Shown piece by piece: positions 42,948-44,231 of a DNA stretch of 64,000 nt; positions within the stretch are counted from its first letter, which is position 1; the number at the start of each line of letters is the position of its first letter. The DNA is from the human T2T-CHM13v2.0 reference genome, Homo sapiens, in the NCBI RefSeq assembly GCF_009914755.1, contig NC_060931.1, one strand, 5' to 3'. The position numbers were made by a program, and so were the translations under genes. Below the pieces are notes generated by a model, which saw only the letters and a program-made list of their open reading frames with translations, ran no database searches and was not told the origin of the DNA.

Positions 42948-43177
42948 TCAATGTAGTGAAACTGAGGCTCAGAGAGGTTTAGGCCCTTGCCTAAGGTCAC
43001 ACAGCTGGGCTGAAAACCCAGGTCTTTGAACCTCACATCCAGTCCTGTTCAGGCACTTTCCTGGCTCCCTTGCAGTGAGGCATAGCTTGCTTTGGCCAAT
43101 GAGTGTGACCAAAGTGACATGTGTCACTCCAGATAGAAGCTTTATGGGTCAGTGCATGAGCCATGGGTCCCTCACCC
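42948..43177 (+). repeat. Left arm of ~230-bp inverted repeat (MIR + MLT1-like fragments)
   Basis: Reverse complement of 43699-43741 plus 44026-44231, with 9 substitutions and 1 indel by manual alignment. Confidence 0.95.
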
Positions 43178-43258
43178 CAGAAGGGTGAAAAGACATGGGG
43201 TGTCTTCTCACCCTTCTTCCCTCACCTGCTCTCTGCTTTCTCCAAAGCACAGGCTGCC

Positions 43259-43427
43259 ATGGGCTCTGTCGGGAGCCAGTGCCTTGAGGAGCCCAGTGTG
43301 GCAGGCACACCAGACCCGGGCATAGTGAGGAGCGTCACCTTCGACAGTCACCAGCTGGAGGAGGCGGCGGAGGCGGCTCAGGGCCAGGGCCTTAGGGCCA
43401 GGGGCGTCCCAGCTTTCACGGATACCA
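43259..43427 (+). pseudogene. SLC29A4: SLC29A4-like first coding exon (169 coding nt)
   Basis: gctgccATGG Kozak at 43259; MGSVGSQ...PAFTDT; donor a|gtaagt at 43428; candidate acceptors AAG (43245-47) or CAG (43250-52) after a pyrimidine tract. Confidence 0.92.
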
Positions 43428-43698
43428 GTAAGTAGGGGTGCGGGTAAGGTGCAGGTTTTGCCCCAAAGCAGGGTGGGCTGTGTGACCCCCGGTGAAGCCT
43501 TGTGGTATCGGGGAGCCATGGGTGGTCATGGAGGACTGGAGGTAGTGCCTGTCAGTGTGGATTAGACCTGCTGCATAACAAACACGCCCACCGTCTCAGT
43601 GTCTCCACCCTGATGCTGCGTGTCCCTGCTGGGGGCCCTGCCCACAGCCCCAGGCAGAGGAGGCTGTGTCTTAACATGGGCTTTTGTGCTCACTGGGT

Positions 43699-44231
43699 GG
43701 GTGAAGGGACCCATGGCTCATGCGCTGACCCATAAAGCTTCTTTTTTTTTTTTTTTTGAGATGGAGTCTCGCTCTGTTGCCCGGGTGGAATGCAGTGGCG
43801 CAATCTCGGCTCACTACAAGCTCCGCCTCCCGGGTTCACACCATTCTCCTGCCTCAGCCTCCTGAGTAGCTGGGACCACAGGTGCCCGCCACCACGCCCA
43901 GCTAATTTTTTGTATTTTTAGTAGAGACGGGGTTTCACTGTGGTCTCGATCTCCTGACCTCGTGATCCGCCTGCCTCAGCCTCCCAAAGTGCTAGGATTA
44001 CATGCTTGAGCCACCGCGCCCGGCCGCTGACCCATAAAGCTTCTATCTGGAGTGACACATGTCACTTTGGTCACACTCGTTGGCCAAAGCAAGCTATGCC
44101 TCACTGCAGAGGAGCCAGGAAAGTGCCTGAACAGGATTGGATGTGAGGTTCAAAGACCTGGGTTTTCTGCCCAGTTGTGTGACCTTAGGCAAGGGCCTAA
44201 ACCTCTCTGAGCCTCAGTTTCACTATGTTGA
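43699..44231 (-). repeat. Right arm of inverted repeat, split by an Alu insertion
   Basis: See left arm; Alu at 43742-44025 flanked by an 18-bp TSD. Confidence 0.95.
43742..44025 (-). mobile_element. AluY-lineage element with the 12-bp left-monomer deletion typical of AluYd
   Basis: Minus strand reads GAGATCGAGACCA^CAGTGAAACC, lacking TCCTGGCTAACA; AluY-type diagnostics; TSD GCTGACCCATAAAGCTTC at 43724-43741 and 44026-44043. Confidence 0.8.

What the first reader, a model, noticed from the sequence alone, without database searches (positions are those of the whole stretch)
42948..44231. ~230-bp, ~96%-identical inverted repeat that loops out the start-codon exon of the SLC29A4 copy
Seen: left arm 42948-43177 is the reverse complement of 43699-43741 + 44026-44231 (9 substitutions, 1 indel). 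The 521-bp loop contains essentially just the ATG exon and its splice sites; the left arm ends ~70-75 nt before the acceptor. Both arms share the same MIR/MLT1-like junction, and the MLT1-like element extends further only on the right (~43550 onward). Established: independent MIR/MLT1 copies are far more diverged than this, so the arms must come from a local inverted duplication or ongoing arm-to-arm conversion. Inference: a pre-mRNA stem controlling skipping or back-splicing of the translation-start exon, or a substrate for recurrent micro-inversion of that exon.
Basis: partly seen in the sequence, partly recalled or inferred. Interest (0 to 1): 0.8.

Follow-up and report, generated by a model that had tools for sequence, protein, structure and literature searches.

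The report
Inherited inverted duplication around SLC29A4-copy start exon
A real, near-perfect 230-base inverted repeat brackets the start-codon exon of a truncated SLC29A4 copy, but it was inherited ready-made from the working SLC29A4 gene and its arms have since drifted apart independently, so any splicing role is still only a prediction.

Summary
Left arm 42948-43177 is the reverse complement of 43699-43742 plus 44045-44231 (9 substitutions, 1 indel). The right arm is split by an Alu with a 19-nt target-site duplication.

The structure is not special to this window. The same arms, the same Alu and the same loop orientation occur at all 3 places in this genome that hold the exon: the window, a 99% inverted twin at C7:57.18 Mb, and the parent ENT-family gene at C7:5.405 Mb. 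So the order of events was inverted duplication, then Alu insertion, then segmental duplication.

Only 1 substitution and 1 indel between the arms predate the segmental duplication. Arms are no more alike within a copy than between copies, so ongoing conversion is not supported. One of about 20 variable sites co-varies.

The window copy is a detached 5' fragment; the later transporter exons lie elsewhere. As RNA the arms fold into a roughly 230-bp stem that loops out the 180-nt exon. That is the known architecture for back-splicing, exon skipping and ADAR editing, but none of these is tested here or found in print.

One unexplained hint remains: 12 of 14 transitions in the arms keep G·U pairing, against 122 of 268 in neighbouring Alus (P about 0.004, post hoc).

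The parts
42948..43177 (+). Left arm of the inverted repeat (MIR core near its 5' end, then unique sequence). It carries a single uninterrupted copy of the Alu target site, so it preserves the pre-insertion state.
43171..43206 (+). 36-nt stretch present in the window copy and its 57-Mb twin but absent from the parent gene. It is flanked by a short direct repeat, contains an inverted copy of the adjacent downstream 10 nt, and forms a 13-bp hairpin. It is either a template-switch-type insertion or a deletion in the parent.
   Evidence: alignment; hairpin visible in the fold; sequence read
43248..43427 (+). 180-nt exon with AG acceptor and GT donor. ATG at 43259. It gives an open 56-codon reading that differs from the parent at 4 amino acids and 4 synonymous sites.
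43178..43698 (+). 521-nt loop between the arms: 70 nt of upstream intron, the exon, and 271 nt of downstream intron.
43699..43742 (+). Inner piece of the right arm. Its last 19 nt (43724-43742) are the first copy of the Alu target-site duplication.
43743..44025 (-). Alu element inserted into the right arm, with its poly(A) tail at the 43743 end. It is shared by all three genomic copies.
   Evidence: 7SL/SRP sub-threshold matches 43756-43902 and 43922-44024, minus strand
44026..44231 (+). Outer piece of the right arm. 44026-44044 is the second copy of the target-site duplication; 44045-44231 pairs with 42948-43134.
42570..42853 (+). Upstream Alu in the opposite orientation to the Alu in the right arm. 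This is a second, weaker inverted pair around the same exon (about 70% complementary).
   Evidence: (I5, I12)
38000..39000 (.). CpG island about 4.3-5.2 kb upstream of the exon (G+C 0.73-0.78, CpG observed/expected 0.82-0.93). It is retained in the window copy as fully as in the parent (37 vs 31 and 62 vs 64 CpGs per 500 nt). That it is the gene's promoter is an inference.
11274..50294 (+). Segmental-duplication block colinear with parent C7:5375001-5412619, carrying the whole structure. The left limit is only the edge of what I fetched. The right end abuts an Alu.

Best explanation
A roughly 230-nt piece of intron downstream of the SLC29A4 start-codon exon (a MIR fragment plus adjoining unique sequence) was copied in inverted orientation into the upstream intron, about 0.5 kb away. 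This happened in the ancestral SLC29A4 gene at 7p22.1. The most likely cause is a replication template-switch or fold-back error (inferred). Soon afterwards an Alu inserted into the right arm. Then a block of at least 39 kb holding the promoter region and this exon was copied to the chromosome 7 pericentromere, and copied again to give the window copy and its 99% twin. Since the first segmental duplication the four arm lineages have accumulated changes independently, at about the neutral rate. The 96% identity seen today therefore records the age of those events, not homogenisation. In the window the structure is a passively inherited relic inside a truncated, unannotated gene fragment. If the region is transcribed, the arms would form a roughly 230-bp duplex that loops out the exon. 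This is the known architecture that favours back-splicing, exon skipping and ADAR editing. Any real consequence would be expected chiefly at the parent gene, and none has been shown.
For: Shown:
- The same 1.4-kb structure occurs at 3 loci of the genome and nowhere else.
- All three loci have both arms, the same Alu at the same site and a colinear loop.
- The parent locus has Nucleoside_tran (PF01733) exons 9-13 kb downstream at C7:5414642-5418362. Its exon translation is the intact version of the window's.
- The left arm holds one uninterrupted copy of the 19-nt Alu target, so the Alu came after the duplication.
- Window-parent divergence is 1548/37510 = 4.13%, or 955/35193 = 2.71% outside CpG. 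Window-twin identity is 99.07% over 40,064 nt.
- Of the arm differences, only 1 substitution (43153/43724) and 1 one-base indel are shared by window and parent, so they predate the segmental duplication. All the others are private to one of the four arm lineages.
- About 18-19 arm changes have accumulated since the duplication, against 19 expected from 460 nt x 4.13%.
- Left-right identity is equal within and between copies.
- The window copy is a fragment. Homology to the parent stops at 50294. The copies of the later transporter exons lie at C7:64757252-64760983, about 29-33 kb before the window start.
- The exon has 4 replacement and 4 silent differences from the parent.
- The minimum-free-energy fold pairs 228 of 230 left-arm bases with the right arm. 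Duplex energy is about -479 kcal/mol with the Alu excised. The longest Watson-Crick run is 52 bp in the window and 85 bp in the parent.

From the literature:
- Inverted repeats of 30-40 nt flanking an exon suffice for circularisation, but stability alone does not predict it, G-U pairs can limit it, and short exons circularise less well (PMC4201285, abstract and passages).
- Template switching makes short inverted copies in human genomes (PMC5453318 and PMC7954356, search listing and start of abstract only).
Against: - The mechanism of the inverted duplication is inferred. No empty-site ancestor could be examined, because no non-human genome is available here, and the junctions show only a 4-nt shared string.
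- Near-identity of the arms at the time of the segmental duplication fits a recent duplication. It equally fits an old repeat that was kept homogeneous until the Alu broke the homology.
- One site (42955/44224) has A-U in the window and G-C in the parent. That is either a conversion or a compensatory pair.
- The transitions in the arms are skewed 12:2 towards changes that keep G·U pairing in the plus-strand RNA. Neighbouring Alus show no such skew (122:146 overall; 35:39 downstream of the CpG island; 5:6 in the Alu inside the arm). A purely neutral history does not predict this.
- The CpG island upstream is undecayed in the window copy, so the fragment may still be transcribed.
Confidence: 0.75

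Rival explanations
1. The stem is a functional pre-mRNA element kept by selection. Pairing of the two arms regulates use of the start-codon exon of SLC29A4 (skipping or back-splicing), and the pairing has been preserved since the segmental duplication.
For: - 12 of 14 transitions in the arms are plus-strand C>T or A>G, which turn a Watson-Crick pair into G·U rather than A·C.
- Alu controls in the same block are 122:146, 35:39 and 5:6. Binomial P is 0.0024 one-sided against the control rate; Fisher two-sided is 0.004-0.009.
- One double change keeps a pair (A-U to G-C, 42955/44224).
- Disruptive changes number 2 transitions plus 3-4 transversions, against about 13 expected.
- In the parent the left arm ends only about 38-43 nt from the acceptor, because the 36 nt are absent.
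- The architecture matches repeats known to drive circularisation (PMC4201285).
Against: - The numbers are small and the test was chosen after seeing the data. If the adjacent pair 44226/44227 is counted as one event the ratio is 11:2.
- The total substitution rate in the arms is neutral (about 19 observed, 19 expected). Part of the skew is an excess of G·U-type changes (11-12 against about 6 expected), which purifying selection alone does not produce.
- The skew is equal in the pseudogene lineage (6:1) and the gene lineage (5:1), which is unexpected for a function of the gene.
- The exon is only 180 nt, and short exons circularise poorly (PMC4201285 passage).
- No SLC29A4 circRNA, exon-2 skipping or editing was found in 5 full-text searches. 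Three of these did not require the gene name; their listed hits were general papers apart from one unrelated paper that mentions SLC29A4.
Confidence: 0.12
2. The arms are held alike by recurrent gene conversion (concerted evolution), as in other palindromic repeats.
For: - The arms were almost identical (1 substitution, 1 indel in 230 nt) when the segmental duplication happened.
- One site has the same derived state on both arms of one copy.
- Conversion might have stopped when the Alu cut the right arm into 44 + 187 nt (inference).
Against: - Since the duplication, 17-18 changes are private to a single arm and only 1 is shared by both arms of a copy.
- Within-copy arm identity (218/230) equals between-copy identity (216-218/230).
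- Arm-to-arm divergence (9/230 = 3.9%) equals window-parent divergence (4.13%).
Confidence: 0.08
3. The repeat acts at the DNA level as a substrate for recurrent inversion of the exon-bearing loop.
For: Inverted arms of about 200 nt and 96% identity, 0.5-0.9 kb apart, are in principle able to recombine.
Against: The loop has the same orientation relative to its flanks in 3 of 3 copies of this genome, after about 4% divergence. The Alu reduces the uninterrupted homology.
Confidence: 0.03

Closest known systems
Intronic complementary sequences that drive exon circularisation (Alu pairs at ZKSCAN1, HIPK3 and EPHB4; the long inverted repeats around the mouse Sry exon)
   Same: Reverse-complementary sequences sit in the two introns next to one exon and close to its splice sites. 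The predicted stem brings the acceptor and donor together (model described in PMC4201285).
   Different: The arms are not a pair of independent transposon copies. They are one local inverted duplication of mostly unique sequence, far more perfect (96-97%) than typical Alu pairs. The looped exon is short (180 nt) and holds the start codon. No back-splice product is known. The Sry comparison is taken from a passage of PMC4201285 and from recall.
Long, nearly perfect inverted duplicated sequences in pre-mRNA (Barak et al. 2020, PMC7006430)
   Same: This is an intronic inverted duplicate at about 96% identity that would form a long duplex, the class that paper reports as depleted and often heavily edited (abstract and passages).
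   Different: At about 230 nt it is below that paper's 'long' cut-off of 300 nt. SLC29A4 is not mentioned in its main text (0 occurrences). Its supplementary tables were not examined.
Short-range template-switch mutations (Loytynoja and Goldman 2017, PMC5453318; Walker et al. 2021, PMC7954356)
   Same: An inverted copy of nearby sequence has been placed a few hundred bases from its source. The 36-nt segment at 43171-43206 also carries an inverted copy of the adjacent 10 nt.
   Different: The 230-nt copy is larger than my recollection of the events those papers describe, which is tens of bases. I saw only the listings and the start of the abstracts. No ancestral state is available to prove the mechanism.
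Arm-to-arm gene conversion in palindromes (for example the Y-chromosome palindromes; recalled, not looked up)
   Same: Inverted arms of high identity separated by a spacer.
   Different: The defining signature, arms more alike within a lineage than between lineages, was tested here and not met.

Membership tests
Exon-flanking intronic complementary sequences (circRNA / exon-looping architecture) | Reverse-complementary sequences in the introns on both sides of the exon | tested here: met
   230-nt arms with 9 substitutions and 1 indel. The fold pairs 228/230 left-arm bases with the right arm.
Exon-flanking intronic complementary sequences (circRNA / exon-looping architecture) | Looped exon has usable acceptor and donor sites | tested here: met
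   AG at 43246-47 and GT(AAGT) at 43428-33 are present in the window, twin and parent.
Exon-flanking intronic complementary sequences (circRNA / exon-looping architecture) | Both arms lie in one transcript | not testable with these tools
   There is no expression data. The hub table gives no transcript here. An undecayed CpG island 4-5 kb upstream is only indirect evidence.
Exon-flanking intronic complementary sequences (circRNA / exon-looping architecture) | Observed back-splice junction or exon-skipped isoform | not testable with these tools
   No read data. Five full-text searches found no report.
Segmental-duplication-derived pseudogene fragment | Long colinear high-identity match to a parent locus, truncated relative to the gene | tested here: met
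   Window 11274-50294 matches C7:5375001-5412619 at 95.9% of aligned bases. The later PF01733 exons are not in the block.
Segmental-duplication-derived pseudogene fragment | Relaxed constraint on the coding exon | tested here: inconclusive
   There are 4 replacement and 4 silent differences in 169 coding nt and the frame is still open. This is too few sites for a rate test.
Alu insertion | 7SL-derived dimer with poly(A) tail and target-site duplication | tested here: met
   SRP-model matches to both halves on the minus strand, below the gathering score. 16-nt T run at 43743-43758 and an identical 19-nt duplication. Subfamily (AluY-like) comes from recalled diagnostic features only.
Concerted evolution of palindrome arms | Arms more similar within a copy than to the corresponding arms of other copies | tested here: not met
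   Within-copy identity is 218/230. Between-copy left-right identity is 216-218/230. Left-left is 223/230 and right-right 218/230.
Concerted evolution of palindrome arms | Derived states shared by both arms of one copy | tested here: not met
   1 site (42955/44224) against 17-18 single-arm changes.
Template-switch / fold-back inverted duplication | Inverted copy close to its source, with the source embedded in longer ancestral sequence and an empty site in outgroups | tested here: inconclusive
   Proximity is met (521-nt spacer). Which arm is the source, and the empty site, could not be tested: there are no outgroup genomes or repeat library, and searches gave no family hits beyond the MIR core.
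ADAR hyper-editing substrate | Long intramolecular duplex plus clustered A-to-G mismatches in RNA reads | not testable with these tools
   The duplex is predicted. No RNA data are available.

The most novel reading that the evidence does not exclude
The stem is a selected RNA element of the working SLC29A4 (PMAT) gene. Since the segmental duplication, substitutions that would break plus-strand pairing have been removed, while G·U-compatible ones and one compensatory pair were kept. A roughly 230-bp intronic duplex would then gate inclusion, skipping or circularisation of the translation-start exon of a pharmacologically important monoamine and drug transporter. The pericentromeric copies, which keep an intact CpG island, may still express the same dsRNA-forming fragment.
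Probability: 0.1. Interest if true: 0.65.

Novelty: new member of a known kind. Interest (0 to 1): 0.3.

Why it matters
For this window it matters little. The repeat is a relic carried along by segmental duplication into a truncated gene fragment.

The useful result is the redirection to the parent gene. The functional SLC29A4 gene carries the same unusually perfect roughly 230-bp inverted repeat around its start-codon exon, with the upstream arm only about 40 nt from the acceptor. I found no paper that mentions it.

That gives three cheap, specific predictions for a transporter relevant to monoamine clearance and drug uptake:
- a single-exon circRNA or an exon-2-skipped isoform;
- clustered A-to-I editing in both arms;
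- altered exon inclusion when one arm is removed.

The three paralogous copies also give a small natural experiment. Each arm serves as an outgroup for the other, and this produced a modest, unexplained excess of pair-preserving substitutions.

Tried and rejected
- **A 20-kb genome search** was swamped by Alu hits and gave nothing on the block. I replaced it by fetching the parent and twin regions and aligning them locally.
- **Repeat-family identity of the inner half of the arms ('MLT1-like').** Genome searches with the arm, the loop-proximal part and the right flank found only MIR-core hits or nothing outside the three loci. The label stays unverified, and which arm is the source is unresolved.
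- **Gene identity through solved structures.** The first attempt used wrong coordinates and hit a stop codon. The 56-residue exon translation then matched nothing relevant in the PDB (best E = 1.2). Identity of the parent as an ENT-family gene rests on PF01733 exon hits and the hub's gene table.
- **Rfam scan of 42400-44800**. It gave only Alu-related sub-threshold matches (SRP, mir-1268, mir-3135) and a few chance-level hits, and nothing in the arms.
- **Transcription-associated or local strand-biased mutation as the cause of the 12:2 skew.** Rejected by the Alu controls.
- **Literature.** Five searches for SLC29A4 with circRNA, editing, dsRNA, back-splicing or splice variants found nothing relevant. 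Three of them did not require the gene name; their listings were general papers apart from one unrelated paper that mentions SLC29A4. A search for the pseudogene and miRNA names returned 11 papers that only list them.
- **Independent insertion of two MIR copies.** Rejected, because the arms share unique non-repeat sequence and the same boundaries.

Full report
**1. Observation**

The repeat finder gives arms 42948-43152 / 44027-44231 (205 nt, 96% complementary) and 43135-43179 / 43698-43742 (45 nt, 91%).

Reading the sequence shows why the right arm is in two pieces. A 283-nt element lies at 43743-44025. It starts with a 16-nt T run and ends in the reverse complement of an Alu 5' end. It is bracketed by an identical 19-nt direct repeat at 43724-43742 and 44026-44044. 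Rfam's SRP model matches both halves on the minus strand below its gathering score, as expected for a 7SL-derived Alu dimer.

With the Alu and one duplication copy removed, the arms align over 230 columns with 9 substitutions and one 1-nt indel. The loop is 521 nt. The exon is 43248-43427, with ATG at 43259, and the left arm ends 70 nt before the acceptor.

A genome-wide search with the arm finds full-length matches only at six arms of three loci. Every other scored hit (40 scored of 92 candidates) is a 45-80-nt MIR-core match at 76-91% identity. Chance and independent repeat insertion are therefore excluded. The 'MLT1-like' label could not be verified.

**2. Where else the structure occurs**

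The window belongs to a human T2T assembly held as G000. The 1.4-kb structure occurs three times, all on contig 7:
- the window;
- C7:57180355-57181760 on the other strand (99.1% identical);
- C7:5405250-5406627.

The third locus is the parent gene. Pfam Nucleoside_tran exon matches lie 9-13 kb downstream of it on the same strand, at C7:5414642-5418362. Its version of the exon translates to an open 56-residue N-terminus from which the window's differs at 4 residues.

A three-way alignment shows that all three loci have both arms, the same Alu at the same site with the same duplication, and the loop in the same orientation.

Local BLAST of the window against fetched parent and twin regions gave two results:
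- Window 11274-50294 is colinear with parent C7:5375001-5412619. The left limit is only the edge of what I fetched.
- Window 23666-63641 matches the twin at 99.07% over 40,064 nt, again up to the edges of what I fetched.

Substitution divergence from the parent is 1548/37510 = 4.13%, or 955/35193 = 2.71% outside CpG. From recalled primate genome divergences this lies between human-orangutan and human-macaque, so the first segmental duplication is probably of ape-stem age. That dating is not from any call.

**3. The window copy is a fragment**

Homology to the parent ends at 50294, next to an Alu. The copies of the later transporter exons are at C7:64757252-64760983, about 29-33 kb before the window begins. 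They coincide with the hub's SLC29A4P2. The exon discussed here therefore belongs to a detached 5' piece (promoter region plus start-codon exon) that RefSeq does not annotate.

A CpG island at window 38000-39000 is as CpG-rich in the window copy as in the parent: 37 vs 31 and 62 vs 64 CpGs per 500 nt, with observed/expected 0.82-0.93. CpG islands that become methylated in the germ line decay, so this suggests the copy's promoter may still be active. That is an inference, not a measurement.

**4. History of the arms**

Each arm serves as an outgroup for the other, so changes can be assigned to lineages.
- Only one substitution (43153/43724, a CpG site) and one 1-nt indel distinguish left from right in both window and parent. 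They therefore predate the segmental duplication.
- All other differences are private to one of the four arm lineages: window-left 2, window-right 6, parent-left 4-5, parent-right 5 plus a 1-nt deletion.
- The left arm carries one uninterrupted copy of the Alu target.

The order of events is therefore inverted duplication, then Alu insertion, then segmental duplication, with the first three close together in time. The window-twin duplication came much later.

Left-right identity is 218/230 within the window copy, 218/230 within the parent, and 216-218/230 across copies. These counts include 3 spurious mismatches caused by an alignment slip at the inner end. Arm-to-arm divergence in the window (9/230 = 3.9%) equals window-parent divergence (4.13%).

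There is thus no concerted evolution since the duplication. One site (42955/44224) has A-U in the window and G-C in the parent. That could be a short conversion tract or a compensatory pair.

Whether the arms were young or were being homogenised before the Alu insertion cannot be decided without outgroup genomes.

**5. A small second event**

The 36 nt at 43171-43206 are present in the window and its twin but absent from the parent. The segment is flanked by a short direct repeat. It contains an inverted copy of the 10 nt just downstream and forms a 13-bp hairpin, visible.

It is either a template-switch insertion in the copy lineage or a deletion in the parent; I could not polarise it. Its consequence is that in the parent the left arm ends only about 38-43 nt from the acceptor.

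**6. Structure as RNA**

Folding 42900-44280 as RNA gives the long stem, with the Alu as a side branch and the exon in the loop. Further measures come:
- 228 of 230 left-arm bases pair with the right arm.
- Duplex energy with the Alu excised is about -479 kcal/mol in the window and -457 in the parent.
- The longest Watson-Crick-only run is 52 bp in the window and 85 bp in the parent.

This is the architecture shown experimentally to promote back-splicing. Repeats of 30-40 nt suffice, but stability alone does not predict efficiency, G-U pairs can limit it, and longer exons circularise better (PMC4201285, abstract and passages). The exon here is only 180 nt.

Long, nearly perfect intronic duplexes are reported to be depleted and often heavily edited in human transcripts (PMC7006430, abstract and passages). 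That paper's main text does not mention SLC29A4, and I did not see its supplements.

I found no paper on a SLC29A4 circRNA, exon-2 skipping, editing, or this repeat. The papers that combine SLC29A4 with 'circRNA' (5) or 'RNA editing' (3) appear, from their titles and the starts of their abstracts, to be about other subjects.

**7. An unexplained skew**

Of 14 single transitions in the arms (13 since the duplication plus the older one), 12 are plus-strand C>T or A>G. These leave a G·U pair in a plus-strand transcript. Only 2 (43069 T>C in the window-left arm; 43167 G>A in the parent-left arm) give A·C. There are also 3-4 transversions.

As a control I polarised window-parent differences in 37 Alus of the same block by the majority state of the other copies. 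Of the 39 Alus found, 2 were dropped because the parent alignment was missing. Results:

| Set | C>T + A>G | G>A + T>C |
|---|---|---|
| All 37 Alus | 122 | 146 |
| Alus downstream of the CpG island | 35 | 39 |
| Alus upstream of the CpG island | 87 | 107 |
| The Alu inside the right arm | 5 | 6 |

A local or transcription-linked strand bias is therefore not the cause. The binomial P against the control rate is 0.0024 one-sided, and Fisher two-sided is 0.0044 (0.009 against the downstream Alus).

Several cautions apply:
- The test was chosen after seeing the data.
- The two adjacent changes at 44226/44227 may be one event, which would make the ratio 11:2.
- The total number of arm changes (about 19) equals the neutral expectation, so part of the skew is an excess of G·U-type changes rather than a deficit of others.
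- The skew is the same in the pseudogene lineage (6:1) and the gene lineage (5:1).

I report it as a hint of selection for pairing, not as evidence of function.

**8. Verdict**

'Local inverted duplication' is right, but the event happened in the parent gene before an Alu insertion and before the segmental duplication. 'Ongoing conversion' and 'micro-inversion' are not supported. The RNA-stem function is plausible by analogy but untested, and in this window it concerns a truncated, unannotated fragment.

This is a new instance of a known kind of structure. Its main value is the pointer to the functional SLC29A4 gene, where the same stem brackets the start-codon exon.

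Noticed in passing
window 31766-31845 (MIR4283-2): The annotated miRNA hairpin lies inside the same segmental-duplication block. The parent region upstream of SLC29A4 has a homologue with only 3 differences and an equally stable predicted hairpin (-25.5 vs -25.6 kcal/mol). The hairpin therefore predates the duplication, although the hub table names miRNA genes only in the copies.
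   Followed up: partly
window 38000-39000: The CpG island is retained in the duplicated copy as fully as in the parent (62 vs 64 CpGs in the richest 500 nt). This suggests the copied promoter has stayed unmethylated in the germ line and may drive an unannotated transcript.
   Followed up: partly
window 43171-43206: A 36-nt palindromic segment is absent from the parent gene. It carries an inverted copy of the adjacent 10 nt and a 13-bp hairpin. This looks like a small template-switch event right at the inner end of the left arm.
   Followed up: partly
window 50294 and beyond; C7:64757252-64760983 (before the window): The copy of SLC29A4 at 7q11.21 is in two pieces in the wrong order. The later transporter exons (SLC29A4P2) lie roughly 72-76 kb upstream of the start-codon exon. 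The block carrying the 5' part ends at 50294 next to an Alu.
   Followed up: partly
window 23666-63641 vs C7:57161001-57201000: A 40-kb stretch is 99.07% identical, in inverted orientation, to a region about 7.6 Mb away on the same contig. This is a much younger second duplication. Its true extent was not determined, because the match runs to the edges of what I fetched.
   Followed up: no
window 44285-44410: Just outside the right arm there is a second, more diverged MIR-like stretch in the same orientation as the arm's MIR part. I recognised it by eye from a recalled consensus only.
   Followed up: no
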